This document shows positions 1-24,329 of a DNA stretch of 41,549 nt, piece by piece (the stretch's first letter is position 1; each line of letters opens with the position of its first letter). Made by a program: the position numbers and the translations under genes. The stretch is from a virus. The stretch lies in the IMG/VR virus record IMGVR_UViG_3300045988_064955, one strand, 5' to 3'. The notes under the pieces were generated by a model. The model worked only from the letters and a program-made list of their open reading frames with translations, was not told the DNA's origin and searched no databases.

Positions 1-119
1 ATAGTTGTTATGCGTTGGCACGCCATTTTGAAAATAACTCCAAGCAATGAGCCAGCCGGTTAGTGTTTGAGACAGTGGAACCGACATTGTCGCAACGTCT
101 CCATTCTCGGGCATCATAG
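1..119. repeat. Terminal direct repeat, copy 1 of 2 (identical to 41431..41549); circular-closure / assembly overlap
   Basis: Bases 1..119 equal 41431..41549 base for base. A - strand reading frame runs through the junction uninterrupted, so the unique sequence is a 41,430-bp circle. Confidence 0.95.
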
Positions 120-9095: not shown

Positions 9096-9116
9096 GTTTT
9101 ACCTCCTTTCATAGAA

Positions 9117-9631: not shown

Positions 9632-9701
9632 GTTTAATCTCCTTAGGTATAAGCCGCCCGCTGTTCGCGTATTGTGCATTTACAAGGCGACGAGTTCATT
9701 G

Positions 9702-10564: not shown

Positions 10565-10597
10565 ATTTAAAATCCTCCTTTAGGAAAATAAAAAGGG

Positions 10598-11699: not shown

Positions 11700-12048
11700 C
11701 AGGATCACCATCCTCTTCCGGCAATTCTGAGCGAAGCTGATTGATGATATTTGTGGTTGATGTTTGCAACGGAAAGCGCATGACTTCAGCACCCATACCT
11801 CGGTAGTCATAGTCTTCCTTCACTTGCTTCATAAGTGCTGTGAAAAAACGATCCCGAGTTTCTGGATTGCTTAGAAATTGTTCCGGCTTTGATCCAAAAC
11901 TAATAGCCGAACTGATTTCACCACAAGCGTCATGCACCAGTTGCATAATCATTGGGTCTTCGATTGTCTGATCAACTTTCAAGTACATTTTCAGAACCTG
12001 AAACTGTTCATCAGTCAGTGGGCTTTTGTCAAGCGTAGTATCTGCCAA
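11689..12048 (-). CDS. gp6-like head-tail connector protein
   Basis: 119-aa ORF right after the capsid gene. The sequence LTDEQFQVLKMYLKVDQTIEDPMI..L is typical of phage gp6-like connectors. Confidence 0.7.
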   Translation of the reverse strand: MADTTLDKSPLTDEQFQVLKMYLKVDQTIEDPMIMQLVHDACGEISSAISFGSKPEQFLSNPETRDRFFTALMKQVKEDYDYRGMGAEVMRFPLQTSTTNIINQLRSELPEEDGDPDAN

Positions 12049-12058
12049 GAGTAATCAC

Positions 12059-13518: not shown

Positions 13519-13544
13519 CTAGTGACCCTCCTTATTTTTTGTAC

Positions 13545-13571
13545 AAAAATAGGCACCGATTATTCGATGCC
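13545..13571 (-). terminator. Intra-operon hairpin plus U-run between the protease and capsid genes (attenuator or RNA-stability element)
   Basis: - sense GGCAUCG aauaau CGGUGCC uauuuuug. The stem has 7 bp with one G:U that pairs only in the - sense. It overlaps the protease stop and lies about 25 nt before the capsid RBS. Confidence 0.4.
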
Positions 13572-14189
13572 CTTGAGCAATTCCTCTTTATTCAGTTGAT
13601 AAAGCATCTTGCGCCGCTTAAGTTCCCATTCTGGCGGCTGATCTAGCGCTTTTATCTGTTCCAACGATCGTGCTCCGACCTTTACCTCAGTGTCTGGATA
13701 AGCAGGTGTTGTCACCGGCGAAACATCAAACAGATGATCGATGTTGTTGATTGTGCGCTCGTATTTAACCCCTCGTTCGCTTGACTTTTGCCACTTTTGC
13801 GCGTCTTTGTCTGGCGCAATCGTAAATGCAAAGCTTGACTGACTGATAATCCCTTGCCGGACGTTTTCGAGTAAGTCACGACCGAGTTGTGTATCTGGTG
13901 GCGTCAGAGTGTACTTAAGTCCAGTGTCGTCAATGGTCAGTTCCAAATTAACGCCAGTGCGGCCTAACACTTGGTTTTGATCATGGTTAAATAGCGCCAC
14001 GACATTGCTCATATCAGCATTGTCGAGCGCATGGCGGTCAATGTGCTCACGAAAACTAAATTCACCGCCGCCCATGATTTCAGATTTCCGGTCAAATTTA
14101 AGCGCATAACCTTCGATGACAGTTGGATGTTTCTCATCCCCATCACGAATTTGCATGGGTGTCGCTGTCATTCGCAGCTCCTTTGTCAT
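13560..14189 (-). CDS. Prohead maturation protease, HK97 (S78) family
   Basis: Motifs ALFNHDQNQVLGRT and SQSSFAF, placed between portal and capsid. The best start is the ATG at 14189, 8 nt after GGGAGG. The track begins at a GTG at 14198. Confidence 0.88.
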   Translation of the reverse strand: MTKELRMTATPMQIRDGDEKHPTVIEGYALKFDRKSEIMGGGEFSFREHIDRHALDNADMSNVVALFNHDQNQVLGRTGVNLELTIDDTGLKYTLTPPDTQLGRDLLENVRQGIISQSSFAFTIAPDKDAQKWQKSSERGVKYERTINNIDHLFDVSPVTTPAYPDTEVKVGARSLEQIKALDQPPEWELKRRKMLYQLNKEELLKGIE

Positions 14190-15396
14190 TAGCATCACCT
14201 CCCTTCAATTGCGATGCGTGTTCAGCTTGATATGCTTCCTTTTGATCAAGGAACACTGTGTTAAGTGTCGACTGAATACGATCCATGTTCGGGTCTTTTA
14301 ACGGTTTCTTTCCAAGCTCCGCACGTCCCTCGTTTCCAGTCCACAGTCCGCCATTAACTGCTGTATTGACGTCAGCAATCGGCAATCCGTTTACTGATTT
14401 TGTGTCAAAGCCAATGCGATACTGATGGCGCTGGTTGTCATCAAGCAACTTTAGTTCAAACTCGCTTGTAATCGGTTCAAAGTAAAATGGAAGATCATTG
14501 CGAATATAGTCATCAGCAAGCTGCTTAACTGACTGATTGGGACTATTTTGGGCTAATCGATACGCTGGCACCCGTAAAGCCTTCGCAATCTGCGCTGTTG
14601 AATAGTTATTGCTGTTAATCAGATTAAGAACGTTGGTATCAACTTCCAACGGCTGATAATCCATCGTCGCGTCAACTATAATTGGTGAACCTGCATCAGC
14701 ACCTGCCTGTGCCCTTTCAAAATCTTCACGAATCTTCTGGCGTGCTTCGGCGGATAGGCGACTCTCCTTTGCTTTGATAATTGAGCCTTTCAAACCACTC
14801 TTGAAGAACTTCTGTAACGTTGAAACACCTGACTCCTGCAGTCCAATTTCATCACCAAGTGACAACAGCGGTGATCGCCCCATGATTGTGTCGTATGAGA
14901 AAAACTTCCAGTGAATGACGTCCTCAAATCCGCATATTTTTTGCATACTAGAGTTGTAAGGCGTGAAACGGTAGATGATGTTATCGGGATCGCTTGTGTC
15001 CACCTGCGTCTGTGATGGGGCATAGAACTCAAACATAGCTGGTTCGTTGGTTATCGGATCGCGCACAATCCGCGAATAAGCATTGCCAGTCAAAATTGCA
15101 TTGACCATCATGGAAAATTTCCACTGATATGCTGATAAACGTTTGTTAACCTTTGTGTTCATCAGATAATCAATGTCAGACAAGTCTATCACTTCATCGG
15201 TTGAGCTGTCAGTGATCACCAACGGAAATCGGCTAACATCACCTGCGACAATTGAGACAGCTGTCAGCACATCGGAGTTGCGTAATGCAGAAATACCAAG
15301 GTATCCACCTCGAAATGATGGGATTACCCCAGAATCAAGCAAATGATCTGCCCATTGAGGGTCCACTTCGGTTGCCAATCCTCGAAATAGCTTCAT
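14143..15396 (-). CDS. Portal protein, HK97 family
   Basis: 417-aa ORF after TerL, with RBS GGGAGGTGAG. Order and size fit an HK97-type portal. Confidence 0.9.
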   Translation of the reverse strand: MKLFRGLATEVDPQWADHLLDSGVIPSFRGGYLGISALRNSDVLTAVSIVAGDVSRFPLVITDSSTDEVIDLSDIDYLMNTKVNKRLSAYQWKFSMMVNAILTGNAYSRIVRDPITNEPAMFEFYAPSQTQVDTSDPDNIIYRFTPYNSSMQKICGFEDVIHWKFFSYDTIMGRSPLLSLGDEIGLQESGVSTLQKFFKSGLKGSIIKAKESRLSAEARQKIREDFERAQAGADAGSPIIVDATMDYQPLEVDTNVLNLINSNNYSTAQIAKALRVPAYRLAQNSPNQSVKQLADDYIRNDLPFYFEPITSEFELKLLDDNQRHQYRIGFDTKSVNGLPIADVNTAVNGGLWTGNEGRAELGKKPLKDPNMDRIQSTLNTVFLDQKEAYQAEHASQLKGGDANDKGAANDSDTHANS

Positions 15397-15401
15397 TCAT
15401 C

Positions 15402-15593
15402 TCACCTCCCTTCGTTATCAGGAAGCAACAGAATAAAGGCGAGAACAAACAACAAGCCGCCGCAAACCATGAATCCAGTAGGCCTATTGATCAAAAAAGC
15501 CCCATATCCAGCTAAAATGAAGCCTAAAACAGTGGCAATTCCAGCCATATTTGCGCCAAGAATTCTAAAAAAGTTAGCTAGTTTTCCATTCAC
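15402..15593 (-). CDS. Small membrane protein between TerL and portal
   Basis: 63 aa with RBS AGGAGGTGA and two hydrophobic helices (GIATVLGFILAGYGAFLI, VCGGLLFVLAFILLL). Confidence 0.6.
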   Translation of the reverse strand: MNGKLANFFRILGANMAGIATVLGFILAGYGAFLINRPTGFMVCGGLLFVLAFILLLPDNEGR

Positions 15594-15604
15594 GTTCTCA
15601 CCTC

Positions 15605-17317
15605 CTAGAAGCCAAAATCATCGCTGAAGACACGCTCATCGTCCAAGTAGTTGTCCAAGTCTTCCTTGAACGCGATGGCATAAGCATCAAGCGTGGCATC
15701 AATCATGTCTATTTTGTTAGCATACTTATTCTTATTAATACGGACGCCGTTGTTGTCAGACATTAGAACCGCGTTCATTGCGGCGGCCTGCATAATGCGA
15801 TTATCTGAATGCTTTATGCGACCGCCTATAACATCATCGCGGAACTGCTTAGTTGGCATTGACAGTGTCAGCGTTCCTTGTCGCACCTGTACCATCGGCC
15901 ACTCAGGATGATTCTTCTCAATTGCCGTTAGCATTGGTCCAAATTGATAAGGGTCGTACATGATACCTTGAACATCTAAGTCATTACGTTCAATGAAGTC
16001 TTCGAGCCATTCATATACCCGATCGTTGTCGATGATACCTGACCCTAAGCTGCTGATCTCTCCTTCGCCGTGTTGTTCAGCAGCCAAGTAGTCAATCCGA
16101 TCCGTCTTGATTTTGTTATCAATTCCGCCTTTAGAAGCGACAAATGCATAACCATCGAGCCACCACCAGCCTTCTTGCGGGATTAACCAAGTAATGGCAA
16201 AAAGGTCGCTTGTACGACCAACATCAATACCAATCCAAGCTCTTTTGCCGCGAATATCAGGCTTTTCACTCAATTCAGCATCCTTCCAAGCATCGAAGTC
16301 TAAATAACTATCTTCAGTCGCTTGCCGCCAAATGTTGAAATTCTTGACCAGTTTTGCATTCAAACTGCCATCAGCACGTGCTTGAGATAGCTTTGTGGTC
16401 AAATAGTCGGTGATCTGATCATGCACAATATCAACGTCAAGTAGCGGATTCGATTTAATCCAAGAATTGGGGTCATCAACCTCTTGTACGTTGTCTTGTT
16501 CAGCAATGAATGCAAAATAGCGTTCTGCCGTTTCTTCACCGGACAACACCTTTTTGGCATATGGATAATTTTGTTGAAACATCGGCACGTTCATGTCGAA
16601 TCCAGCCGTTGAAATGATGAACGTCAGATAACTAGGCAGTAACACCTGACCTGAGGCAAGGGTTTCAATCATATCTGTTGTTTTAGCGTTGGCATATTCG
16701 TCAACCACCGCAACATGGGGTTCATAGCCATCGACAAGTCCTGTATCACGAGAGAACGAACGAATTGTTGATCCGTCGTCTAAATTGACAAGTTCATCTC
16801 GCGTAATCTTAACCATTCGTTTGATGCCTGGGTCTTTCCGCATGAGCGCACGTAATCGGTCTTTTACCATTCCGAATACAATGCCGGCCTGCTTGCGATC
16901 ATTAGCAGCGGTATATAATTGCCGTTTGTTGGCTGGATTCTTTCCGAACAGAAACTCATACAGAATGACGCCAGAAATCAAAAGCGACTTACCGTTTTTT
17001 CGTGCCATCGAAATGAACACATCGGTAAATCGCCTTATATTTGGATCATCTTTGTCAACCCAGCCATATATACTGCCAATAATGAATTTTTGAAACGGTG
17101 CTAATGGTTGTGGTTTCCCACTTTTTGGTTCTGGCAGAATCTCCATAAATTTAACAGCTTTTCCCGCTAGATTTGGATCATATCGCCATCGCCAATCTGT
17201 TCGTTTCAAGTCTTCTTGATGCCGTTTCACCGCGAGATTAACTGCCTTAGAAGTAATAAGACGACCGTCTAGCACACGTTTTATGAAATTAGGCATTGGA
17301 TCCTTAAATTTTGACAA
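15605..17317 (-). CDS. terL: Terminase large subunit
   Basis: 570 aa with a TTG start after GGAGGTGA. It has an ATPase region (..ISMARKNGKS..VAVVDE..) and a C-terminal nuclease region typical of Terminase_1-type TerL. Confidence 0.92.
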   Translation of the reverse strand: MSKFKDPMPNFIKRVLDGRLITSKAVNLAVKRHQEDLKRTDWRWRYDPNLAGKAVKFMEILPEPKSGKPQPLAPFQKFIIGSIYGWVDKDDPNIRRFTDVFISMARKNGKSLLISGVILYEFLFGKNPANKRQLYTAANDRKQAGIVFGMVKDRLRALMRKDPGIKRMVKITRDELVNLDDGSTIRSFSRDTGLVDGYEPHVAVVDEYANAKTTDMIETLASGQVLLPSYLTFIISTAGFDMNVPMFQQNYPYAKKVLSGEETAERYFAFIAEQDNVQEVDDPNSWIKSNPLLDVDIVHDQITDYLTTKLSQARADGSLNAKLVKNFNIWRQATEDSYLDFDAWKDAELSEKPDIRGKRAWIGIDVGRTSDLFAITWLIPQEGWWWLDGYAFVASKGGIDNKIKTDRIDYLAAEQHGEGEISSLGSGIIDNDRVYEWLEDFIERNDLDVQGIMYDPYQFGPMLTAIEKNHPEWPMVQVRQGTLTLSMPTKQFRDDVIGGRIKHSDNRIMQAAAMNAVLMSDNNGVRINKNKYANKIDMIDATLDAYAIAFKEDLDNYLDDERVFSDDFGF

Positions 17318-17338
17318 TCAGCATCACCTCCATCACAG

Positions 17339-17794
17339 TCAGCCAAAAGTATCAATGATTGAATCGTTCTTCTGTGCTTCAGTCTTAGGCATATTCATTT
17401 GCATCCGACTGTTAACATTCAACCCTAGATCACTCGCGAGGCTCTTAATGCTTGCGGTGGCCTTATTCAAGGTGCTAATGTACGCATAATATTCATCTTG
17501 ATCTCCATTCTTTAAAGCCAATTTCATGTTGACCGATGTGTTTTTGTAAACCGAATACCATGTACAATAGTTTTCCAACTCGGCGCGATCGAGATTTCTA
17601 AGTGGTAAGGTCCCCAAAGATTCGATAATTCGCTTGTATTCTTGTTTTGCGACTGGGTCAAGATGATTAGGCGGTGTTACCTGAAGTTTTGGAATGCCAT
17701 CTTTGGCCATTAATTCCGCATGTAGCTTGGCTTCTTGCCGTTCTTTGGTCAAATCACCCTTAGACATTTGCAACACTTTGTATTTTCCAGCCAT
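17339..17794 (-). CDS. terS: Terminase small subunit, P27 family
   Basis: The C-terminal ..SLASDLGLNVNSRMQM.. and LDRAELENYCTWY pattern fit P27-family TerS. The ATG at 17794 follows AGGAGG. The track GTG at 17806 overlaps the RBS. Confidence 0.85.
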   Translation of the reverse strand: MAGKYKVLQMSKGDLTKERQEAKLHAELMAKDGIPKLQVTPPNHLDPVAKQEYKRIIESLGTLPLRNLDRAELENYCTWYSVYKNTSVNMKLALKNGDQDEYYAYISTLNKATASIKSLASDLGLNVNSRMQMNMPKTEAQKNDSIIDTFG

Positions 17795-17806
17795 TTCCCA
17801 CTTCAC

Positions 17807-17993
17807 CTCCTAATATCTATATAAAATGGGATGAGTTTACCCCTGCCGCCTTAAAAATCGTTACAATTTGGGGTGCAAAAAAGAGGCCGACCGTTCTTCC
17901 GCTTCGAGAAATGTAACCCCCGATAAAAATGGAGGGGGGTCTGGAGGATTTCAGCCCGTCTGTTCGCCCGATAAATTGTCGAAAATTTGTTTT
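17807..17993. other. Probable cos region (physical genome ends)
   Basis: 187-bp non-coding gap between an HNH gene and terS, the canonical layout for HK97-like cos packaging. It contains a C5 / G6 inverted pair (17917..17921 / 17934..17939) and G-rich GGAGGGGGGTCTGGAGG. Confidence 0.5.
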
Positions 17994-18794
17994 TTAATTT
18001 TTTATTTTCTTGAATTTTGCAAATTTGTTTTCTGATTTCATTTCGTCAAGTTTGTTCATCACTTTGATGAGTTGACTCACATCTCGACCTTGCTTAGACA
18101 GTCTCTGCATGCATGTGTCTCGATCAGTGTCAATGAGTATGTGTTCGACATCTCGACTAGCAAGCAACGAGTCTAGCTTCTCATCTGGATATGTCATGAC
18201 TAACCACACATGGTCGAAGGTCTGCTCTGCTTTAAGCTTCCGCAGTATCAGCTCATAGATTAGCTGCACATACTCATTGGCGTCTATATTTCCCTGATGT
18301 AATGGCAGGCCTGTTAACGCCGTCATGAGATGGTCATAATCATAGACGAGGTCATGCTGTCCTTGATGCCGCTTGACGTATGTTGACTTGCCACTTGCTG
18401 GATAGCCAACGATTACTGTAATCTTCATGGCTCGATGTTGTCCCTTCTTACGCTTGGTTGTCTCACGTCTCGTCTTCCAATAGTGACAGTCCTTGCATAA
18501 AGCCTGCAGATTATCCGCGTTCGTGCGGTCTTCCCAGTCATATTCGCTTGGAACAATATGATCAACCAATGAGGCTTGCAAGCCACAGCGTTGGCATAAA
18601 CTGTTGTCTCTAATCAATATCTGCTCACGCAGCTGCTTCCATTCATTACTGTGATAGAACTTAAGGTAGTCCGACTGCTGCTCATTCCGCACACGGTTGT
18701 ACTGCCTATCTGCCTCCGCCCTAACGCGAGTGTTGGCATCAACTAGCTCGGGTCTGCCATTGATGAATGCTAGCTTCTTACTCGGCATGGGCAT
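17994..18794 (-). CDS. HNH endonuclease (cos-associated type) fused to a C-terminal P-loop NTPase/kinase-like domain
   Basis: N-terminal half: FYHSNEWKQLREQILIRDNSLCQRCG..VDHIVP..NLQALCKDCHYWKT. C-terminal half: Walker A VIVGYPASGKST and Walker B-like VWLVMTYPDE. Confidence 0.8.
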   Translation of the reverse strand: MPMPSKKLAFINGRPELVDANTRVRAEADRQYNRVRNEQQSDYLKFYHSNEWKQLREQILIRDNSLCQRCGLQASLVDHIVPSEYDWEDRTNADNLQALCKDCHYWKTRRETTKRKKGQHRAMKITVIVGYPASGKSTYVKRHQGQHDLVYDYDHLMTALTGLPLHQGNIDANEYVQLIYELILRKLKAEQTFDHVWLVMTYPDEKLDSLLASRDVEHILIDTDRDTCMQRLSKQGRDVSQLIKVMNKLDEMKSENKFAKFKKIKN

Positions 18795-18824
18795 CTCCCG
18801 TATACGATGTGTTAGTCATGCCCA

Positions 18825-18989
18825 TCACTCCTCATGTAATCCGATGACGATTGCCAATCCAATAAACAACACCGGAACAGCAATCATCACTATTAGCTGC
18901 ATGAATACTAGCAGCCAACTCCACGCAATCAAGCCGAATAGCTTGGCCAGCACGAATATTAGTGTGAGCAGTAATAGGAAATTGCACAT
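18825..18989 (-). CDS. Small membrane protein (54 aa), below the track threshold
   Basis: Hand translation gives MCNFLLLLTLIFVLAKLFGLIAWSWLLVFMQLIVMIAVPVLFIGLAIVIGLHEE. GAGAGG lies 9 nt upstream. It fills an otherwise empty gap. Coordinates are hand-derived. Confidence 0.45.
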   Translation of the reverse strand: MCNFLLLLTLIFVLAKLFGLIAWSWLLVFMQLIVMIAVPVLFIGLAIVIGLHEE

Positions 18990-19006
18990 GCTAAATCGCC
19001 TCTCGA

Positions 19007-19330
19007 TTAAGATAATATGATTGTCGAATAGGAACCGATACCGTCAATGCTTATACCAGTAATATCCCATCCTGATTTCGTTAGCAAACTGATTACTTCA
19101 TTAACGACTGCTGGATTGTACTTGGAAACGCTAATTGAGATTGGGGATGTATTACCAATTCCTTGATTAATGGCATCGTTCACATCAGCAATCAGATTGT
19201 CTTTGTATTTCTTAGTTGCAGTGGCACGAGTTGGCAGGCATCCTTCCATTTTTGGTAGCACTGGTGCGGGTGGAGGCAACTGACGGTGAGACAATTCCCT
19301 ACTTTGGCCTTTAGCATTATCGAATAGCAT
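19007..19330 (-). CDS. Hypothetical protein
   Basis: 107-aa ORF in operon context with no motif I recognise. Confidence 0.55.
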   Translation of the reverse strand: MLFDNAKGQSRELSHRQLPPPAPVLPKMEGCLPTRATATKKYKDNLIADVNDAINQGIGNTSPISISVSKYNPAVVNEVISLLTKSGWDITGISIDGIGSYSTIILS

Positions 19331-19332
19331 GT

Positions 19333-19653
19333 CTATTCCTCCGTGTATTGTTTGATCCTGTCAACCCGCAAGTCGCACCATTCATCATGGGTGCCGTCTG
19401 CCTTGTAAACTGTTACGACTGGCATTGATCGGTATCCCAGCTTGCGGAACCGTTCGTAGTCGTCTGCGTCTGCTGTGATGGTTTGCACCGGCATGACACG
19501 TGACAGTTTGAATACTGTTCGCCGACACTTTTGACAGCCAGGCCTTGTGTAGATAATTGCTTGCATGTGTTTCTCTTCTCTCGATAGCGCTTCAATAATC
19601 GCTTGCTCCGTGCGGCTTACATATCCGTAACCGACTCGCTTCATACCTGACAT
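19333..19653 (-). CDS. NrdH/glutaredoxin-like redoxin
   Basis: IIYTRPGCQKCRRT.. carries a CxxC motif, followed by ..MPVVTVY... The thioredoxin-fold core may start at the internal Met (MQAIIY). Confidence 0.7.
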   Translation of the reverse strand: MSGMKRVGYGYVSRTEQAIIEALSREEKHMQAIIYTRPGCQKCRRTVFKLSRVMPVQTITADADDYERFRKLGYRSMPVVTVYKADGTHDEWCDLRVDRIKQYTEE

Positions 19654-19656
19654 GAC

Positions 19657-20187
19657 TTACACCGCCAACTCGAATGTATATCCGTGGCATGTTTTTTGCC
19701 TGCCGTGAAGACATGCCGTTATGTTTTGATAATGTAGACCAAGGAGTCTCGCGGCTTTGCTTACACCGCTAAAGTAATAGCGATGCCCCGAGTTAGTAAC
19801 GACGTAGATTTGTTTTTCCCTTGCTTCAGCCACGCGCTTGATGTGATTTCCGTAATTGTTGTTGTACTTACTGTCGCACCACTCAAGATTTTCAACTCGG
19901 TTGTTGCCTTTGTCCTCGTCTTTGTGATTTACCTGAGGCAGATTGTCTTGGTTCGGTAGAAATGCTTCTGCTACCAAGCGGTGAACCAACATGTATTTCC
20001 TTTTTCCATCTCTACATAGAATAACCTCGCGATAGCCGTTTTTTCTTAGCTTGCTGGAAAGCATTATCCCCTTCCAGCCGCGCCCGTTTCCGTCTACGCG
20101 GTCAAGGCTTCTCACCCTGCCTAAGTTGCTTATCTGATATAGCCCCTCATAGTCCTTAATGTCTTTCCAGATTTCCTTTTCGCTCAT
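19657..20187 (-). CDS. Free-standing HNH homing endonuclease (NUMOD4 + HNH_3 type), copy 1
   Basis: KEIWKDIKDYEGLYQISNLGRVRSLDR (NUMOD4) and LVHRLVAEAF..VNHKDEDKGNNRVENLEW (HNH). The ATG at 20187 follows AGAGGTGA. It is a paralog of 30915..31463. Confidence 0.85.
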   Translation of the reverse strand: MSEKEIWKDIKDYEGLYQISNLGRVRSLDRVDGNGRGWKGIMLSSKLRKNGYREVILCRDGKRKYMLVHRLVAEAFLPNQDNLPQVNHKDEDKGNNRVENLEWCDSKYNNNYGNHIKRVAEAREKQIYVVTNSGHRYYFSGVSKAARLLGLHYQNITACLHGRQKTCHGYTFELAV

Positions 20188-20199
20188 GATAATCACCTC

Positions 20200-21348
20200 T
20201 CAAACGTAATATATGGCTGTCGTATCATGATCCGAATATTCAATTAGCTCAAACGTCTTATGAGCCACAACTCCGAGATCATCTGTCCATTTGTCAGTAG
20301 GCTTTCTCGTGGACATCTGTCTTTGCACAAATCCCCCAAGGTCTTTACTCATTTCTGAATGTAAGTGCCCAGTTATCAGTTCGCGATTCTGTGCTGTGCC
20401 TAACATGAAGCCAAACTCATCTAGATATTTTGCAAGGTAGTTGTTCTTACCCTTGTCTCCGTGAGTAGCGCCAATGAAGTTATGGCCTAACATTGTGCCT
20501 TTGTAATGCTTCAGTGATATATCCCAAGTGATGTTCGACTGGTTGCTGTAGGCACGTTTCAATAGACGTGCAAACATATATCCAACTGACGGATCGTGGT
20601 TACCTGGCGCATACATGACCTCACACTCATTGGCGTTCTTAATGATTGCTTCTATCAGCGTCTCGAAGTATTGTTCCATTTCGTTCACAGTCTCGCCTAG
20701 GTCGGTTGTTTCGAGCTGTGTGCCCTTTGCTGTGGTCGAGTTGATATTATCCACATGAGCAAGATCACCGCCCAGAATAAGCAATACTTTGGCGTAGTGG
20801 CCGCGTTGAATGATCTCTAGCTGACGCTTAAGAGATTCCGCATAGATGTCGAATGTGTGACCGTTGAAATGCGTGTCGAAAGCAGGAATGACCAGATAGC
20901 GATCTGATTCCACAAAAATAGGAGCCTTAGCTTGATACGGCTCCTTGTGTGTGATGATGTCATTCATCAGCGATTCATATTGTTCTGCTTCAACTAACGG
21001 CCTGATTTGTATCTTGCTTTGATACAACGTTGCTTCAGGCGTCTGCTTCCAGAAGTTGCTTGTAGCACGTACAAGCTCCCACTTGGTGTAATCATACCCG
21101 TGAGCTTCCAGAACCTCTCTAGGCGTCATTTTGTGGCCCCTGACAACCTTTAGAATGGTTTCACTGGACTGTGTACCGTCTGAATCGTATTCATTCTTGA
21201 CTGGTTTTTGGAACTCGATGCCAAGCCGTCTTGCTTTACCTTGAAGCGCATCATAGCTAATCCCGAGTTTGTCGGCTGTCTCGCGTCTGGTAAAGCCTTC
21301 AGAGGCGAGCTTCCTAATGTCACCGATCTGTTCATCTGTCCATTGCAT
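20200..21348 (-). CDS. N-terminal HTH domain fused to a calcineurin-like metallophosphoesterase
   Basis: HTH: TRRETADKLGISYDALQGKARRLG. All five MPE motifs occur in order: FDTHFNG, LGGDLAHVD, APGNHD, GATHGD, TGHLHSE. Confidence 0.8.
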   Translation of the reverse strand: MQWTDEQIGDIRKLASEGFTRRETADKLGISYDALQGKARRLGIEFQKPVKNEYDSDGTQSSETILKVVRGHKMTPREVLEAHGYDYTKWELVRATSNFWKQTPEATLYQSKIQIRPLVEAEQYESLMNDIITHKEPYQAKAPIFVESDRYLVIPAFDTHFNGHTFDIYAESLKRQLEIIQRGHYAKVLLILGGDLAHVDNINSTTAKGTQLETTDLGETVNEMEQYFETLIEAIIKNANECEVMYAPGNHDPSVGYMFARLLKRAYSNQSNITWDISLKHYKGTMLGHNFIGATHGDKGKNNYLAKYLDEFGFMLGTAQNRELITGHLHSEMSKDLGGFVQRQMSTRKPTDKWTDDLGVVAHKTFELIEYSDHDTTAIYYV

Positions 21349-21461
21349 CTACTCGCCTCCTGAAATATAATGACCGTGAGCAGTTTGATGACGCTGCTCA
21401 CATTCTCATGAAGAACTTCCCGAGTTCTTAAGCCCTCGGATTAGGCCCCGAAAGCTTTTTT
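21343..21461 (+). ncRNA. Array A unit a: candidate small RNA transcription unit
   Basis: Promoter TTGCAT-N17-TATAAT (21343..21371) overlaps the RBS and start of the - strand gene. Perfect hairpins GTGAGCAG/CTGCTCAC (21376..21401) and AAGAACT/AGTTCTT (21411..21429). An imperfect terminator stem (21430..21457) is followed by a T6 run ending at 21461. Confidence 0.4.
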
Positions 21462-21516
21462 GTTGCTTAAAAAATTTCGATGAGTTAGAATTAAATTGTT
21501 CCCAACAGATACTCAT
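21406..21516 (-). CDS. Possible 36-aa basic peptide (competing explanation for part of array A)
   Basis: AAAGGAGTGAAAATG gives a strong RBS. The product reads MSICWEQFNSNSSKFFKQQKSFRGLIRGLKNSGSSS. It is below the track threshold and overlaps the predicted + strand units. Confidence 0.3.
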   Translation of the reverse strand: MSICWEQFNSNSSKFFKQQKSFRGLIRGLKNSGSSS

Positions 21517-21576
21517 TTTCACTCCTTTGTAATACCCTTTCTTTAGGCTCTCGGCCCCCAACCGAGGGCTATTTTT
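21463..21576 (+). ncRNA. Array A unit b: candidate small RNA transcription unit
   Basis: Promoter TTGCTT-N17-TAGAAT (21463..21491). Terminator stem 21546..21554 / 21562..21570 has 9 bp, two of them G:U that exist only in the + sense. T-run at 21572..21576. An exposed CACUCCUUU lies at 21520..21528. Confidence 0.45.
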
Positions 21577-21712
21577 GTATCTTCTATAAGGAATGTGCTA
21601 ATATATATGCGTGAGTAGTGTCTTTTCTCCTCCAAGTCAACCGCTGCTGCTCACACAAGTATTTCGTTTTTTCATTCTTTTGGCTCTTGGACTGGTCTCT
21701 GAGGGCTTTTTT
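21575..21712 (+). ncRNA. Array A unit c: candidate small RNA transcription unit (paralog of unit a)
   Basis: Promoter TTGTAT-N18-TGcTAATAT (21575..21604). Hairpin GTGAGTAG/CTGCTCAC (21611..21654) has CUCCUCC in its loop (21627..21633). The terminator at 21683..21706 has three G:U pairs that form only in the + sense. T6 run at 21707..21712. Confidence 0.45.
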
Positions 21713-21733
21713 AATCCGATTTATTGCTACATG

Positions 21734-21818
21734 TGTTATACTCTTTTTCGGTACCGTTGTTTCACCTCAGTAAACACCGGTAGCTAGGCCCTCAGTTAAT
21801 CGCTCAGAGGGCCTTTTT
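21734..21818 (+). ncRNA. Array A unit d: candidate small RNA transcription unit
   Basis: Extended -10 TGtTATACT (21734..21742). Hairpin CCGTTGTTT/AAACACCGG (21754..21780). Terminator GGCCCTC/GAGGGCC (21787..21813) is followed by T5 at 21814..21818. Confidence 0.45.
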
Positions 21819-21825
21819 GTTGCAC

Positions 21826-21856
21826 AAAAATAGCACCTCACCGTTTGGCGGAGTGC
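21826..21856 (-). terminator. Rho-independent terminator of the 286-aa orphan gene
   Basis: - sense GCACUCCGCC aaac GGUGAGGUGC uauuuuug. Two G:U pairs form only in the - sense. It lies about 30 nt after the stop at 21889. Confidence 0.6.
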
Positions 21857-21888
21857 TTTAGTAAATAAAAAGATGCCAAAGCGTCATA

Positions 21889-22749
21889 TTAGCTCTCTTG
21901 GTTTGTAGCACTAGATTTCGAAACGGCTGCCTTAAGCATATTCCCAGCATCGGTCGGACGTTCAGCATAAATTAACTCTGAAGGATTATTGGGATTAGCG
22001 TATGGTGGATTCAGCGTTCCCGAAATAAATTCAGCTAACTTATTTGATTCTAAATCAACGATTGCCATCTGGATGCTTGTCTTCTCAATGTTAGAAAAAA
22101 CTGGCACTTTGCTAAATGCGGTTGCTACCCATCCAGTATTGTCTCCCTGCACTCTACCATCTACAGCAATGAATGCTTTTGGTCCTGGAACTAACGGCCA
22201 ATGGTCTGAATTCCGAAGCAGAGTTAGAGCTAGCGGAGAACTTCTGTCTATTAAATTCAAAATGCTCTTGTTCTTAGAAAAAGTGCTTCCCCAATCTTTT
22301 TCATTTGCAAGATTACCCAGATAATCAGACATAATATCTAACATATCATCATCTGATGGAGCATCTGACAGTAGGGAGACTATTTTCGAATAGATACTCA
22401 GTCCGTACGGATTTGTGAGGAGAGAACTCAACCTGTGAAGGCCCTGCTCTTGATCATCGGTCTTTTGTAGATATTCTGCCAAAAGCAAAGTCTTCTTCAT
22501 GTCATCCAAACGGTCTTTTAAATGATCCCCCGTATCCACAAGATCAAGGATCAGATCTCCCCATTTGCCGTTTAAGACGTCTACCGCCAGCTGCTTTCCT
22601 TTCGACTTGGCAGTATCGACCACTGCTGACCTCACATCCTTACTATCAAGCTTTTTCTGCTCTATTCTCTTATCCAAGCTCATTTTCTCAGCATGCAAAA
22701 GATATTCTGGATGCTCAATCATGGCCCGAATTTCCGCTTTCTTGTCCAT
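21889..22749 (-). CDS. Orphan 286-aa protein, own transcription unit (moron-like); function unknown
   Basis: RBS GAGGTGAT lies 5 nt before the ATG, and the gene has its own terminator. It has a helical charged N-terminal half and no motif I recognise. It is flanked by non-coding RNA-like regions on both sides. Confidence 0.7.
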   Translation of the reverse strand: MDKKAEIRAMIEHPEYLLHAEKMSLDKRIEQKKLDSKDVRSAVVDTAKSKGKQLAVDVLNGKWGDLILDLVDTGDHLKDRLDDMKKTLLLAEYLQKTDDQEQGLHRLSSLLTNPYGLSIYSKIVSLLSDAPSDDDMLDIMSDYLGNLANEKDWGSTFSKNKSILNLIDRSSPLALTLLRNSDHWPLVPGPKAFIAVDGRVQGDNTGWVATAFSKVPVFSNIEKTSIQMAIVDLESNKLAEFISGTLNPPYANPNNPSELIYAERPTDAGNMLKAAVSKSSATNQES

Positions 22750-22869
22750 TTCGTATCACCTCACAAAAATAGTACCCCAGCATGAACTGGAATACTACAT
22801 TGAGGTGATTAAGTGAGCACTGCGCAGCCGTTTTCCGCCGGCCAATCTGGTGCACGTTTGATAGCGCAA

Positions 22870-22934
22870 TGTGGCATGCGGGAATCGAACCCGCCTGACT
22901 ATCTCAGCCAGTCCTCATTGCCACGCCTTGCCAC
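22870..22934 (-). other. tRNA-like fragment (canonical T-arm + acceptor 3' strand, anticodon-arm-like hairpin, no D-arm)
   Basis: - sense GTGGCAAggcGTGGCAAtgagGACTGgctgagaTAGTCagGCGGGTTCGATTCCCGCATGCCACa. The T-arm is perfect (GCGGG TTCGATT CCCGC). The acceptor pairs 6 of 7. There is no D-arm, only a 2-nt variable region, and C at position 33. Confidence 0.5.
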
Positions 22935-23036
22935 AGCTTTATCATCACTGAGGCTCGGAGGAAAAATGCGGTGTCTCAGGTTTCTCACCTTTGGCACAAT
23001 ACAATCATATGACGGAAAAGCGTGTTTTTTGTTGCA

Positions 23037-23489
23037 TCATTGTTGCACGGATGTTGCAACTAGTTTCACTAGCGGACATATTTCAGCAAAAGCATAGAGA
23101 GCTTCTTGTGTTTGTCGCCAAAGGGTCGTTCGGTCAACATGCAAGTGAGCGGCTAACTGAAGGCTGGATTTACGTGTCGTCTTTGGAGTCAGATAGCTCT
23201 CAACTAAGATGATGCGGTAGTCTTCATTCTCTATAGATTCAATAGCACCTTCACAGCACGCTATATAGTACAGCTCGTCAGCGTGCGATACGAGCTTGTC
23301 CTCGGCTTTATTTCCATAGCTGGGTGACTTGGGCATGCCGTCCATCACGGGGCTTCTGAGCGCTATTTTGGTGCGTTGAGCGAGCCGCTTGTGATGCCAG
23401 TAGTTCCCCAAGACCTCTTTGGCGTTTTCAATTGTTTTGTCATGATCAATTGGGCTAAAATATCTCGTTGCTCGCACCACTGCGTCCAC
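23037..23489 (-). CDS. arpU: ArpU-family late transcription regulator
   Basis: ..IDHDKTIENAKEVLGNYWHHKRLAQR.. plus a C-terminal sigma-r4-like ..LAAHLHVDRTTLWRQTQEALYAFAE. It sits at the early/late boundary. The real start is probably the GTG at 23480, 8 nt after AGGAG. Confidence 0.75.
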   Translation of the reverse strand: MDAVVRATRYFSPIDHDKTIENAKEVLGNYWHHKRLAQRTKIALRSPVMDGMPKSPSYGNKAEDKLVSHADELYYIACCEGAIESIENEDYRIILVESYLTPKTTRKSSLQLAAHLHVDRTTLWRQTQEALYAFAEICPLVKLVATSVQQ

Positions 23490-23495
23490 TCCTTA

Positions 23496-23560
23496 TGGTA
23501 TAATTAAATTTGTAAAAGTTTGGGGAAACGGCGTGCCGTAATGGTGCGCTTTTGTTTTTT
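23496..23560 (+). ncRNA. Array B unit 1: candidate small RNA transcription unit
   Basis: Consensus extended -10 TGgTATAAT (23496..23504) abuts the arpU RBS on the opposite strand. Terminator GCGTGCC/GGTGCGC (23531..23549) has two G:U pairs that form only in the + sense. T-rich run at 23550..23560. Confidence 0.45.
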
Positions 23561-23561
23561 G

Positions 23562-23630
23562 TGATATACTTGCTGTTCAAATAATTCGATTTGATAGACT
23601 GAGTCGTCCTGTTAATCCGGGGCGACTTTT
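23562..23630 (+). ncRNA. Array B unit 2: candidate small RNA transcription unit
   Basis: Extended -10 TGaTATACT (23562..23570). Terminator GTCGTCC/GGGGCGAC (23603..23626) has one G:U that forms only in the + sense. T4 run at 23627..23630. Confidence 0.4.
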
Positions 23631-23735
23631 GCTATACTACCTTTGGAGATGCTTTCTTATGCGTGTTAACCTTATAAGTTGGGGAACAATCTGATTCAAG
23701 CATCTCCCGCGCGTTGCTTATGTGACGCGCTTTTT
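23630..23735 (+). ncRNA. Array B unit 3: candidate small RNA transcription unit
   Basis: Extended -10 TGcTATACT (23630..23638). A perfect 10-bp stem GGAGATGCTT/AAGCATCTCC (23645..23707) encloses a 43-nt loop. Terminator GCGCGT/ACGCGC (23709..23730) is followed by T5. Confidence 0.45.
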
Positions 23736-23833
23736 GGTATACTGTATACGGAGGCCAAATCCTAATCTTTTATTTAATTCACTCTCAATCGTACGTCTGG
23801 CCTCCGGCGCGTCCTTCACCAGACGCGCTTTTT
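23735..23833 (+). ncRNA. Array B unit 4: candidate small RNA transcription unit (paralog of unit 3)
   Basis: Extended -10 TGgTATACT (23735..23743). A perfect 8-bp stem GGAGGCCA/TGGCCTCC (23750..23805) encloses a 40-nt loop. Terminator GCGCGTC/GACGCGC (23807..23828) is followed by T5. Confidence 0.45.
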
Positions 23834-23841
23834 GTTTACAA

Positions 23842-23913
23842 TCATTTTCCTCTTTTCCAGTTAGCCCACGCCCAAATTGCAGCACCTGAGATTAGCAGCA
23901 TTACGGCAATCAT
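23842..23913 (-). CDS. Possible 23-aa hydrophobic peptide coupled to yopX (ATGA overlap)
   Basis: Hand translation gives MIAVMLLISGAAIWAWANWKRGK. The ATG overlaps the YopX TGA. A weak + strand promoter-like TGtTTACAAT (23833..23842) would read antisense through it. Confidence 0.3.
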   Translation of the reverse strand: MIAVMLLISGAAIWAWANWKRGK

Positions 23914-24329
23914 TGCTTTCCCTCCAATAGCTGTTTGTCCTCAAAGATGTTTCCGATTACCTCGCACGTCTCAACACCTTCTTGAAAAATAGTTGCGAGT
24001 GCGTTTGCATCATAACTCCATGATGTCGGTATGCCTTCCAAATCAAATGCTGGGTAGTCCTCCTTGCCAAACCATTTTACTGTTGCTACATAAGATTCCC
24101 AGTCTTCTGACGTGACTTTCAGAATATCGCCTTCGTAGATTTCTCGGCCGTTCTTGTCTTTGAGCCCAGTGTATTGCATGAGTTCATAGCTATCCGCAAG
24201 TTGTAATTCTGCATCATACGCATCTTCGATAAGGCTCCATAATCCGCTTGGACCAAAATTCATAGCGGCAACATCAACCATCACTTTGTCTTTTTTGTTC
24301 CACGCTCTGAACTTAATCTCTCGTTTCAT
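23910..24329 (-). CDS. YopX family protein
   Basis: MKREIKFRAWNKKDKVM.. and ..QYTGLKDKNGREIYEGDIL.. are hallmark YopX sequences. Confidence 0.85.
   Translation of the reverse strand: MKREIKFRAWNKKDKVMVDVAAMNFGPSGLWSLIEDAYDAELQLADSYELMQYTGLKDKNGREIYEGDILKVTSEDWESYVATVKWFGKEDYPAFDLEGIPTSWSYDANALATIFQEGVETCEVIGNIFEDKQLLEGKQ

What the first reader, a model, noticed from the sequence alone, without database searches (positions are those of the whole stretch)
23496..23842. Array B: a second set of four + strand promoter-hairpin-terminator units between yopX and arpU
The architecture matches array A. The extended -10 boxes are:
- TGgTATAAT (23496..23504)
- TGaTATACT (23562..70)
- TGcTATACT (23630..38)
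- TGgTATACT (23735..43)

Each box sits immediately after the T-run of the previous terminator. The terminator stems are at 23531..49, 23603..26, 23709..30 and 23807..28. The first two have G:U pairs that form only in the + sense.

Units 3 and 4 are clear paralogs. Each has a long perfect stem (GGAGATGCTT/AAGCATCTCC or GGAGGCCA/TGGCCTCC) around a 40-43-nt loop, followed by a GCGCGT..ACGCGC terminator. Those long stems pair an SD-like GGAG with an anti-SD CUCC.

The first promoter abuts the RBS of arpU on the other strand. That is the same face-to-face geometry as array A with the gene at 21348.

A weaker fifth promoter-like box (23833..42) would read antisense through a possible 23-aa hydrophobic peptide (23842..23913). 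This layout resembles a type I toxin-antitoxin pair.
Basis: partly seen in the sequence, partly recalled or inferred. Interest (0 to 1): 0.8.

Follow-up and report, generated by a model that had tools for sequence, protein, structure and literature searches.

The report
Antisense small-RNA array guarding phage arpU
Four tiny self-contained RNA genes sit head-on in front of the gene (arpU) that switches on a Lacticaseibacillus prophage's late and lysis genes; they probably hold that switch off in the dormant phage, and the core unit recurs in front of arpU in phages of at least four other bacterial groups.

Summary
Window 23496-23842 contains four + strand cassettes, each an extended -10 box, a short structured RNA and an intrinsic terminator. 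They run antisense to the phage genes, between yopX plus a small peptide gene and arpU.

- **Strand bias.** All five TGNTATAMT boxes in the 41.5-kb window are on the + strand, and four lie here.
- **Conservation.** In 71 distinct arpU-upstream regions of related phages, antisense versus sense counts are 148 vs 1 for boxes and 188 vs 1 for terminators.
- **Structure.** The GGAG...CUCC closing stem of units 3 and 4 covaries.
- **Expression.** Published sRNA-seq of the lysogen L. casei BL23 (PMC8220740) maps a 5' end just downstream of the identical TGGTATAAT box. It maps 3' ends at homologous terminators.
- **Generality.** Unit 1 (promoter abutting the arpU ribosome-binding site, then a terminator) is present in 35/35 Enterococcus-type, 59/59 S. 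thermophilus-type and 19/19 L. reuteri-type arpU loci.

Most likely function (inferred, untested): a cis antisense or transcription-interference gate on the late activator. The type I toxin-antitoxin idea is not supported. Function and cross-genus conservation appear undescribed. I class it as a new variant of a known kind.

The parts
23037..23480 (-). arpU (ArpU/Ltr-family late-gene activator), the presumed target. The start is GTG 23480.
   Evidence: phrog_248 'transcriptional activator', E 7e-42. Homologues are named 'ArpU family phage packaging/lysis transcriptional regulator'. The homologue CDS in R3.1 maps to 23480.
23489..23494 (-). arpU Shine-Dalgarno (AAGGAG on the - strand), 1 nt from the P1 box
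   Evidence: Read from the sequence. The same SD-then-box juxtaposition is seen in other genera.
23472..23504 (+). P1: -35-like TCGCAC (23472-77) and extended -10 TGGTATAAT (23496-504). The -35 lies inside the first arpU codons.
   Evidence: The same two hexamers are listed as the promoter of sLCB1264.9- in BL23, with the RNA 5' end at the 8th nt after the -10. The box is present in most of the L. casei-group loci.
23512..23561 (+). Unit 1 RNA, about 48 nt (predicted start G23512). Terminator hairpin 23530-50 with three G:U pairs, T-run 23550-60.
   Evidence: stem nearly invariant, loop hypervariable. Start inferred from BL23.
23562..23631 (+). Unit 2: box TGATATACT 23562-70. RNA of about 54 nt with a 5' hairpin and terminator 23602-27 (two G:U pairs).
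   Evidence: z -3.75. Family 3 has 8 distinct sequences and 21 copies.
23630..23736 (+). Unit 3: box TGCTATACT 23630-38. RNA starts at GGAG (23645/6). Closing stem 23645-54 with 23698-707, 43-nt loop, terminator 23709-30.
   Evidence: z -5.99. Family 4. Stem covariation.
23735..23836 (+). Unit 4: box TGGTATACT 23735-43. RNA starts at GGAG (23750/1). Closing stem 23750-57 with 23798-805, 40-nt loop, terminator 23806-29.
   Evidence: z -5.46. Family 2 has 47 distinct sequences. A terminator one base different is the 3' end of BL23 sLCB1264.7-.
23842..23913 (-). Conserved 23-aa membrane peptide gene (MIAVMLLISGAAIWAWANWKRGK). Its ATG overlaps the yopX stop. It is a neighbour, probably not part of the RNA system.
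23910..24329 (-). yopX, the last large gene of the early operon upstream of the array
   Evidence: Pfam YopX, E 1e-24.
22769..22798 (-). Sense-strand terminator downstream of arpU. It closes the arpU transcription unit.
   Evidence: Sense terminators cluster at +500 to +1250 from the arpU start in 63 loci.
21348..21889 (+). Array A: a second cluster of + strand promoter-terminator units with the same RBS-abutting geometry, in front of the gene starting at 21348.
   Evidence: BL23 homologues sLCB1266.7- and sLCB1266.9-. Second antisense cluster.

Best explanation
Array B is a tandem set of four autonomous, non-coding, sigma-A-type transcription units on the strand opposite to the phage lytic genes. 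Each unit is an extended -10 promoter, a 48-91 nt structured RNA and an intrinsic terminator.

The units are active in the lysogen. They lie head-on in the only path by which early-operon transcription reaches arpU, the activator of the packaging, morphogenesis and lysis genes.

The core is unit 1. Its promoter abuts the arpU ribosome-binding site and its terminator confines antisense transcription to about 50 nt. Units 2-4 are modular additions found in L. casei-group phages.

Proposed mechanism (inferred): the array is a cis-acting negative gate on arpU.
- RNA polymerases bound at and firing from the antisense promoters collide with or occlude polymerases coming from the early operon (transcriptional interference).
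- The antisense RNAs pair with the arpU leader and expose it to double-strand-specific cleavage.

This would keep ArpU, and hence lysis, off when early transcription is only leaky. After induction it would impose a threshold or delay, with the number of units setting the strength. The terminators stop each antisense transcript from running back into the early genes.

Shown here or in the literature: the sequence elements, their strand-exclusive conservation, stem covariation, and the existence, 5' end and 3' ends of such RNAs in a lysogen.

Inferred: any effect on arpU.
For: **Elements and statistics.** establish the boxes, terminators and strand asymmetry.

**Conservation in the L. casei group.**
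- In 71 distinct arpU-upstream regions, antisense boxes outnumber sense boxes 148 to 1, and antisense terminators outnumber sense terminators 188 to 1. Loci carry 1-6 units.
- In 63 loci the antisense boxes and terminators pile up in the 500 nt before arpU (139 and 155). None lie inside arpU. Sense terminators follow arpU.

**Structure.** GGAG and CUCC are invariant and the five inner pairs covary, with 23 cells changed on both sides. In 0 of 500 shuffles was the observed value reached.

**Expression in lysogen BL23, prophage PLE3** (PMC8220740, Additional file 3):
- sLCB1264.9- is abundant (CPM 660-940) and has its 5' end at the 8th nt after TGGTATAAT. It ends at the third terminator (244 nt) or, in one library, 97 nt earlier at the second terminator.
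- sLCB1264.7- ends at a terminator of the unit-4 type.
- A sense-strand RNA, sLCB1264+ (163 nt), ends 26 nt inside the P1 transcript and 57 nt short of arpU. This is what a block at P1 would give.
- I mapped BL23 coordinates onto locus L008 and checked four anchors.

**Cross-genus conservation of unit 1 geometry.** Antisense TGnTATAAT lies 14-29 nt from the arpU start in 35/35 Enterococcus-type, 59/59 S. thermophilus-type and 19/19 L. reuteri-type loci. A nearby antisense terminator is present in 32, 57 and 18 of them. Almost nothing is found on the sense strand. In Enterococcus the RNA is little more than a terminator hairpin. That argues the promoter's position, not the RNA's content, is what is conserved.

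**Why a guard is plausible.** Ectopic expression of the ArpU-like LlgA alone triggers phage lysis genes and kills Listeria (PMC7397523).
Against: - No experiment links these RNAs to arpU.
- The internal promoters of units 2-4 have no mapped start. The one BL23 RNA of unit-4 type has its widest 5' end 6 nt upstream of its box and was flagged 'no promoter'.
- The BL23 libraries were RppH-treated, so 5' ends are not proven primary starts.
- The short overlap (50-350 nt) limits collision-type interference.
- Open complexes are usually displaced by elongating polymerases.
- Invariance of GGAG and CUCC is not explained by a pure interference model.
- In Listeria phi10403S, deleting the lysogeny-expressed ncRNA rliG (listed next to llgA) did not reduce virion yield after UV. 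I could not verify that rliG is the equivalent element. The result is also compatible with a brake.
- One Streptococcus phage (Javan330) lacks the element.
Confidence: 0.55

Rival explanations
1. Trans-acting regulatory sRNA 'morons'. The cassettes are autonomous accessory genes expressed from the prophage. Their exposed loops (about 40 nt in units 3 and 4) base-pair with host or phage mRNAs elsewhere. Their position next to arpU is incidental, or reflects a permissive insertion site.
For: - Each unit has its own promoter and terminator, and units assort as a mosaic among phages.
- They are expressed in a lysogen.
- The stable 5' stem with a large open loop is a typical sRNA design.
- Many family-2 loops open with a C-rich ACUCC motif.
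- Subfamily F2b pairs best with the arpU ribosome-binding region among 41 genes, CCACUCC with GGAGUGG.
Against: - The units are tied to one position and one strand, in front of arpU, plus a second junction at array A. They were found nowhere else in 63 loci or in the window.
- There is no complementarity beyond chance elsewhere in the prophage.
- The window's own units rank 4th to 34th of 41 for the arpU ribosome-binding region.
- Unit 1 in Enterococcus is too short to carry a seed.
- Host targets could not be tested.
Confidence: 0.15
2. RNA-based superinfection immunity. Antisense RNAs made by the resident prophage pair with the arpU leader of an incoming related phage that carries the same units. 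This blocks its late genes. Loop diversity and unit shuffling would then reflect escape and counter-escape.
For: - The RNAs are lysogen-expressed.
- There are many loop subfamilies on conserved scaffolds, and the loop of unit 1 is hypervariable.
- There is precedent: prophage BTP1 antisense RNA STnc6030 excludes BTP1 (PMC7067206).
- From my own knowledge of the field, P1/P7 c4 RNA and P4 CI RNA are RNA immunity factors with loop-encoded specificity.
Against: - No direct test exists.
- Terminator loops are expected to drift neutrally.
- Unit 1 is nearly identical across most L. casei-group phages, which would make them all homoimmune.
- The cross-genus conservation of geometry with minimal RNA content fits a cis role better.
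Confidence: 0.12
3. Passive insulator. The region is a stack of terminators that stops stray antisense transcription (from the late region, array A or the host flank) from entering the early genes. The -10-like boxes are by-products of T-rich terminator tails.
For: - There are four terminators in a row on one strand.
- Boxes start in the T-run of the previous terminator.
- Only P1 has a mapped 5' end.
Against: - The TGnTAYAMT boxes are invariant at six of nine positions in 32 of 32 units. They sit at a fixed 6-7 nt from the invariant GGAG. That is not expected of by-products.
- P1 is not preceded by a terminator, and it is the most conserved element across genera.
- P1 drives an abundant RNA.
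Confidence: 0.08
4. Type I toxin-antitoxin pair. The 23-aa hydrophobic peptide (23842-23913, - strand) is a toxin, controlled by a convergent or overlapping antisense RNA (unit 4 or a fifth unit).
For: - The peptide is small, hydrophobic and has a basic tail.
- The terminator of unit 4 lies 12 nt from its stop codon.
- A TACAAT or TGCAAT hexamer often follows that terminator.
Against: - There is no toxin-family match in Pfam. The only hit is phrog_27601, a phage small-protein family.
- Its ATG overlaps the yopX stop (ATGA), with an SD inside yopX, so it is an operon member and not an independent structured mRNA.
- In roughly half of the loci the peptide gene is followed by another gene, not by an antisense unit.
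- The fifth box lacks TG and has no terminator.
- No such RNA appears in the BL23 list.
Confidence: 0.03

Closest known systems
sLCB1264.9- and sLCB1264.7- (and sLCB1266.7-/1266.9-) of L. casei/paracasei BL23 prophage PLE3, sRNA catalogue of Mickute et al. 2021 (PMC8220740)
   Same: These are homologous elements. The P1 box and -35 are identical. The terminator of the unit-4 family differs by one base. The strand relative to arpU is the same. The RNAs were detected in a lysogen.
   Different: They are only listed in a supplementary table as 'antisense' sRNAs. That catalogue does not mention arpU, array architecture, unit families or function. PLE3 carries a different combination of units (families 1, 6, 2b, 2c) from this window (families 1, 3, 4, 2a).
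Lambda paQ and OOP antisense RNAs, and P22 sar RNA (from my own knowledge of the field; OOP and P22 sas are cited in PMC7067206)
   Same: They are short phage antisense RNAs with their own promoter and terminator, opposing a regulatory gene. paQ opposes the late regulator Q.
   Different: - Each of those is a single RNA that overlaps the coding region or RBS of its target.
- Here there are 1-6 tandem cassettes that stop short of the RBS.
- Here the promoter itself, not the RNA, abuts the RBS.
- The hosts and regulator families are unrelated.
Convergent-promoter transcriptional interference, coliphage 186 pR-pL (PMC5001618 listed; details from my own knowledge)
   Same: A face-to-face promoter arrangement in a phage developmental switch, with short overlapping transcription.
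   Different: In 186 two mRNA promoters oppose each other across 62 bp. Here non-coding, immediately terminated units are stacked against a distant upstream promoter.
STnc6030 antisense RNA of Salmonella prophage BTP1 (PMC7067206)
   Same: A prophage-expressed antisense RNA opposite lytic genes, highly expressed in lysogeny. It gives a phage-specific block.
   Different: STnc6030 is about 786 nt, a single RNA, and lies opposite structural genes in a Gram-negative P22-like phage.
Listeria phi10403S ncRNA rliG next to llgA (PMC7397523)
   Same: An ncRNA expressed in lysogeny, of unknown function, listed adjacent to the ArpU-like late activator. A Listeria phage locus shows the same SD-then-TGATATAAT antisense geometry.
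   Different: I could not obtain the coordinates or strand of rliG, so the equivalence is unverified.
Tandem sRNA gene arrays such as Listeria LhrC1-5 (from my own knowledge)
   Same: Several paralogous sRNA genes head to tail, each with its own promoter and terminator, and with C-rich motifs.
   Different: Those are chromosomal, trans-acting and stress-regulated. There was no Rfam match for this array on either strand.

Membership tests
Cis-encoded antisense sRNA of a phage regulatory gene | Own promoter on the strand opposite the target transcript | tested here: met
   Extended -10 boxes occur only on the antisense strand. In BL23 the RNA 5' end lies at the 8th nt after the P1 box.
Cis-encoded antisense sRNA of a phage regulatory gene | Defined 3' end at an intrinsic terminator | tested here: met
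   Four + strand terminators. BL23 3' ends lie at homologous terminators.
Cis-encoded antisense sRNA of a phage regulatory gene | Non-coding | tested here: met
   There is no conserved ORF. The only AUG-initiated frames in unit 3 shift between homologues (sequences). Unit 4 has no AUG.
Cis-encoded antisense sRNA of a phage regulatory gene | Overlap with the target mRNA and a measurable effect on it | not testable with these tools
   The overlap with an early-to-arpU read-through transcript is inferred from gene order and the absence of sense terminators. The effect on arpU is untested.
Convergent-promoter transcriptional interference module | Face-to-face promoters with overlapping transcription and reciprocal inhibition | tested here: inconclusive
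   The head-on geometry is met. A truncated sense RNA ending inside the P1 transcript in BL23 is suggestive. Inhibition has not been measured.
Type I toxin-antitoxin system (Fst/par, TxpA/RatA, BsrG/SR4 types) | Small hydrophobic toxin of a recognised family on its own transcript | tested here: not met
   No Pfam hit at E up to 10. ATGA overlap with yopX. phrog_27601 only.
Type I toxin-antitoxin system (Fst/par, TxpA/RatA, BsrG/SR4 types) | Obligate pairing of the toxin gene with an overlapping or convergent antisense RNA gene | tested here: not met
   The peptide gene is often followed by another gene instead of an antisense unit. Many arrays lack the peptide gene.
RNA anti-CRISPR / solitary CRISPR-repeat unit | Sequence resemblance to the host CRISPR repeat or tracrRNA anti-repeat | tested here: not met
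   The local alignment score is within the shuffle range (p 0.04-0.2).
Any Rfam family | Covariance-model match | tested here: not met
   No hit at gathering score in the window. There was no + strand hit in 23490-23842 at E up to 10; the only hit inside it was a - strand lncRNA match at 23609-23661, E 9.5, far below gathering.
Intrinsic (rho-independent) terminator | G+C-rich hairpin followed by a T-run on the transcribed strand | tested here: met
   The G:U pairs of T1 and T2 form only on the + strand.

The most novel reading that the evidence does not exclude
The antisense promoter-terminator cassette abutting the arpU ribosome-binding site is an ancient, general 'safety catch' on the late-gene master activator of temperate phages of Lactobacillales and Listeria.

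In L. casei-group phages it has expanded into modular, shuffling arrays. Unit number would set the induction threshold or timing. Variable loops would in addition give RNA-encoded immunity specificity against related superinfecting phages. That would be a second, RNA-based immunity region analogous to immI of P1/P22.
Probability: 0.3. Interest if true: 0.8.

Novelty: new variant of a known kind. Interest (0 to 1): 0.68.

Why it matters
ArpU/Ltr-family proteins switch on packaging and lysis in many temperate phages of Gram-positive bacteria. These include dairy starters, probiotics, enterococci and Listeria. How their own expression is kept silent in lysogens, and how it is timed after induction, is poorly understood.

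A conserved head-on sRNA promoter at the arpU ribosome-binding site would be a missing control layer. It was present in every arpU-upstream region I surveyed in three distant ArpU clades, in nearly all regions of the window's own clade, and in one sampled Listeria phage. It is directly testable by point mutations in an intergenic region.

It could explain differences in spontaneous induction and lysis among industrial Lacticaseibacillus strains. The compact promoter-stem-terminator cassettes would also be useful parts for engineering.

Tried and rejected
1. **Rfam.** No family at gathering score. With the permissive search, no + strand hit in the array and only one - strand chance-level match. 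No tRNA genes in the window.

2. **CRISPR repeat or tracrRNA mimicry.** Alignment scores were at chance. The repeat sequence was from memory.

3. **Extended trans complementarity of the four RNAs elsewhere in the 41.5-kb window.** The best matches were 10-14 nt with E 0.6-1.2, which is chance level. An earlier RNAduplex tiling script timed out.

4. **Seed pairing to the arpU ribosome-binding region.** The window's units rank 4th to 34th of 41 genes. Only the foreign subfamily F2b ranks first.

5. **Type I toxin-antitoxin.** Rejected.

6. **Small peptides encoded in the units.** Frames are not conserved.

7. **Genome-wide taxonomic scan.** The pattern TATACT-N5-8-GGAG-N40-70-CTCC-N-GCGCG was too degenerate.

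8. **The 14-nt inverted repeat** between the unit 1 terminator (23534-47) and the start of the peptide ORF (23895-908). It is not maintained in R3.1, whose peptide codons differ, so I treat it as chance.

9. **Literature.** Searches for ArpU plus antisense or sRNA found no description. One search was badly posed and uninformative. Supplements of PMC7397523 are not held, so the position of rliG is unverified.
Full report
**Context.** The window is a Lacticaseibacillus (casei/paracasei/rhamnosus group) temperate siphophage, a Junavirus relative, lying in reverse orientation.
- Integrase and repressor-side genes are on the + strand near 36-38 kb.
- All lytic genes are on the - strand.
- The finding lies in the 360-nt gap between a 23-aa peptide gene that follows yopX (23910-24329; Pfam YopX) and arpU.
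- ArpU belongs to the Ltr superfamily of late-operon activators (PMC3753634).
- Phage R3.1 (OP807344) is identical across the whole array.

- The four boxes are at the stated positions: TGGTATAAT, TGATATACT, TGCTATACT and TGGTATACT.
- Four hairpin-plus-T-run terminators lie at 23530-50, 23602-27, 23709-30 and 23806-29.
- Boxes 2-4 begin in or right after the T-run of the preceding terminator.
- The pattern TGNTATAMT occurs five times in the whole 41.5-kb window on both strands. All five are on the + strand, four here and one in array A. The expectation is 2.3 for the whole window.
- Six of the eleven + strand terminator-like sites in the window lie in arrays A and B.
- Folding favours the + strand for units 1-3 because of G:U pairs: -13.2 vs -5.3, -19.4 vs -10.5 and -37.1 vs -28.0 kcal/mol. 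Units 2-4 fold far better than shuffles, with z from -3.8 to -6.0.

**Conservation.**
- Thirteen annotated relatives all show the same kind of units on the same strand and none on the other.
- In an unbiased set of 80 IMG/VR loci retrieved through ArpU (71-99% identity), 71 upstream regions are distinct. They hold 148 antisense boxes against 1 sense box, and 188 antisense terminators against 1 sense terminator. Loci carry one to six units.
- A position profile over 63 distinct 3.4-kb loci shows three features:
  - The antisense elements pile up in the 500 nt before arpU (139 boxes, 155 terminators), with none inside arpU.
  - A second antisense cluster lies at +1250 to +2000, which corresponds to array A.
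  - Sense terminators lie just after arpU (45 sites).
- So arpU is the terminal gene of its transcription unit. It is preceded only by antisense-oriented signals.

**Unit anatomy.** Clustering gives families.
- Family 1 is unit 1, which is nearly universal.
- Family 3 is unit 2, and family 4 is unit 3.
- Family 2 is unit 4, which is large and has at least five loop subfamilies.
- Families 6-8 are absent from this window.

Families 2, 4, 7 and 8 share one plan: TGnTAYAMT, then 6-7 nt, then GGAG plus 3-6 variable bases, a loop of about 40 nt, the complement ending in CUCC, 0-4 nt, a GCGCG-type hairpin and T5.
- GGAG and CUCC are invariant in 32 of 32 sequences.
- The five inner pairs covary, with 23 cells changed on both sides. 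In 0 of 500 shuffles was this reached. Slid controls drop from 83% paired to 33-55%.
- By the BL23 spacing rule the RNAs start at the GGAG itself. The 5' end is therefore locked in a stem and the loop is exposed.
- The stem reads GGAG...CUCC on both strands, so the 'SD/anti-SD' reading is not strand-informative.
- In unit 1 the stem is nearly invariant and the loop hypervariable (five variants). Two alternative 5' segments exist.

**Direct evidence of transcription.** A published sRNA-seq catalogue of the lysogen L. casei/paracasei BL23 lists RNAs in prophage PLE3 (PMC8220740, Additional file 3, Tables S2, S4 and S5). The PLE3 array is homologous to this one.
- sLCB1264.9- is antisense, with CPM 661-942.
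  - Its promoter is TGGTATAAT with -35 TCGCAC, the same hexamers as window 23496-504 and 23472-77.
  - There are 7 nt between the -10 and the 5' end.
  - It is 244 nt long and ends at the third terminator. It is 97 nt shorter in one library, which is the second terminator.
- sLCB1264.7- is 111 nt and ends at GGCGCGTCCTTCATCAGACGCGC. This differs by one base from the unit 4 terminator here.
- The array A homologues sLCB1266.7- and sLCB1266.9- reach CPM 3978.
- I mapped BL23 coordinates onto locus L008 (iLp84, near-identical to PLE3). The mapping fits at four anchors: -35, -10 and two terminators.
- Caveats:
  - The libraries were RppH-treated.
  - Sizes below 50 nt were excluded, so unit 1 alone would be missed.
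  - The internal promoters were not called separately.
- The same table lists a 163-nt sense-strand RNA (sLCB1264+). It starts inside the array and ends 26 nt inside the P1 transcript, 57 nt short of arpU.

**Beyond the L. casei group.** ArpU homologues of only 25-30% identity occur in Enterococcus, Streptococcus, L. reuteri and Listeria phages.
- Five of six sampled loci show an antisense TGnTATAAT a few bases from the arpU Shine-Dalgarno sequence.
- Three larger surveys confirm this:

| ArpU clade | Distinct upstream regions with the box 14-29 nt from the arpU start | With an antisense terminator within 130 nt |
|---|---|---|
| Enterococcus-type | 35 of 35 | 32 |
| S. thermophilus-type | 59 of 59 | 57 |
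| L. reuteri-type | 19 of 19 | 18 |

- Across these three surveys there is one sense-strand box and two sense-strand terminators in total.
- In Enterococcus the predicted RNA is about 35 nt, essentially a terminator hairpin.
- What is conserved is therefore a strong promoter pointing away from arpU, abutting its ribosome-binding site, with immediate termination.
- The arrays of extra units are an elaboration in the L. casei group.

**Mechanism.** I favour a cis-acting negative gate on arpU (confidence 0.55 for the whole statement; about 0.9 that these are real antisense transcription units).
- The -35 of P1 lies in the first codons of arpU and its -10 lies 1 nt from the SD. A polymerase at P1 therefore covers the entrance to arpU.
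- Polymerases arriving from the early operon must pass one to six head-on promoters.
- The terminators keep antisense transcription out of the early genes.
- Antisense RNAs could also pair with the leader and trigger cleavage.
- This fits expression in the lysogen, the strict position and strand, the truncated sense RNA in BL23, and the lethality of unscheduled ArpU-type expression. LlgA alone triggers lysis (PMC7397523).
- It does not explain the invariant GGAG and CUCC, and it has not been tested.

**Rivals.**
- Trans-acting sRNA morons (0.15). I found no target. The window's units rank 4th to 34th of 41 for the arpU ribosome-binding region, and only the foreign subfamily F2b ranks first.
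- RNA-based superinfection immunity in the manner of STnc6030 (0.12).
- A passive terminator stack (0.08). This is contradicted by the invariance of the boxes and by P1.
- A type I toxin-antitoxin pair (0.03).

**The peptide ORF.** The ORF at 23842-23913 encodes a genuinely conserved 22-24-aa membrane peptide with many conservative variants.
- It overlaps the yopX stop (ATGA).
- It has no toxin-family match and belongs to phrog_27601.
- It is adjacent to an antisense unit in only about half of the loci.
- The 'fifth promoter' has no TG and no terminator.

**Novelty.** The RNAs of the homologous PLE3 array are already catalogued, so their existence is not new. I found no paper that connects them, or any antisense RNA, to arpU. 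The same holds for the modular array and for the cross-genus RBS-abutting promoter. Listeria rliG, expressed in lysogeny, of unknown function and listed next to llgA, may be the same thing, but I could not verify its coordinates. I class the finding as a new variant of a known kind: phage cis-antisense or convergent-promoter control, as in lambda paQ/OOP, P22 sar and 186 pR-pL.

Noticed in passing
window 22870-22935 (-): A tRNA-like fragment with a perfect T-arm (GGCGGGTTCGATTCCCGC) lies downstream of arpU. It scores below tRNA thresholds (tRNA-Sec model E 0.04) and ARAGORN finds no tRNA. Related phage iLp84 has an intact tRNA-Ile at the equivalent place. Enterococcus phages phiEf11 and phiFL3A also have a tRNA just after arpU. 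This looks like a decayed member of a conserved arpU-tRNA synteny.
   Followed up: partly
window 21348-21889 (+), array A: This is a second cluster of + strand promoter-terminator units. Terminators lie at 21546-70 and 21682-707, with two more by eye near 21432-61 and 21786-815. Boxes are AAATATAAT ending at 21379 and TGTTATACT at 21734-42. The first promoter again sits about 15 nt from the SD of the downstream - strand gene, a 382-aa GcrA-like plus metallophosphatase 'DNA repair exonuclease'. BL23 homologues sLCB1266.7- and sLCB1266.9- are expressed, up to CPM 3978.
   Followed up: partly
window 23842-23913 (-): A conserved 23-aa membrane peptide gene (consensus MIAVMLLISGAAMWMWANWKRGK) is translationally coupled to yopX. 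It is present in about 50 of 81 related loci. It is mis-annotated in some phages as 'tail length tape measure protein' (phrog_27601).
   Followed up: yes
L214-L219 and L220-L405 (Enterococcus, S. thermophilus, L. reuteri and Listeria phage loci): An antisense TGnTATAAT box lies 14-29 nt from the arpU start, followed by a terminator. It is present in every distinct upstream region surveyed in three distant ArpU clades. In S. thermophilus phage P9853 a 36-aa CDS (P9853_44) is annotated on that strand. Its start lies upstream of the predicted transcription start, so the annotation is probably spurious.
   Followed up: yes
L008 1410-1248 (sense strand; BL23 1263693-1263855): BL23 sLCB1264+ is a 163-nt sense-strand RNA. 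Its -35 (TTGACG) lies inside the complement of an antisense terminator hairpin (the GCGCGTCAACACCCGGCGCGC variant). It ends inside the P1 transcript before reaching arpU. In the window, a weak sense promoter-like site (TTGAGA-18-TAGGAT, 23788 to 23759) lies in the unit 4 loop.
   Followed up: partly
window 23534-23547 and 23895-23908: A 14-nt inverted repeat (13 of 14 complementary) links the unit 1 terminator and the first codons of the peptide ORF. It is not maintained in phage R3.1, so it is probably chance.
   Followed up: partly
window 17994-18794 (-), 20200-21348 (-) and 19657-20196 (-): Between arpU and the terminase lie three genes: an HNH plus AAA_33 (kinase-like) protein, a GcrA-like plus calcineurin-type phosphoesterase protein, and an I-HmuI-like HNH/NUMOD endonuclease. 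The kinase and phosphoesterase pair next to tRNA remnants hints at nucleic-acid end-repair functions.
   Followed up: no
alignment A2 columns 25-29 (family 2 units in L014-L093): Most family-2 loops open with (A/C)ACUCC directly after the GGAGGCC stem. This allows an alternative mini-hairpin GGAG-GCCAA-CUCC. In subfamily F2b it gives a 7-nt match (CCACUCC) to the arpU SD region GGAGUGG. GGAGU occurs in only 1 of 41 ribosome-binding regions in the window, that of arpU. The window's own unit 4 has AAUCC instead.
   Followed up: partly
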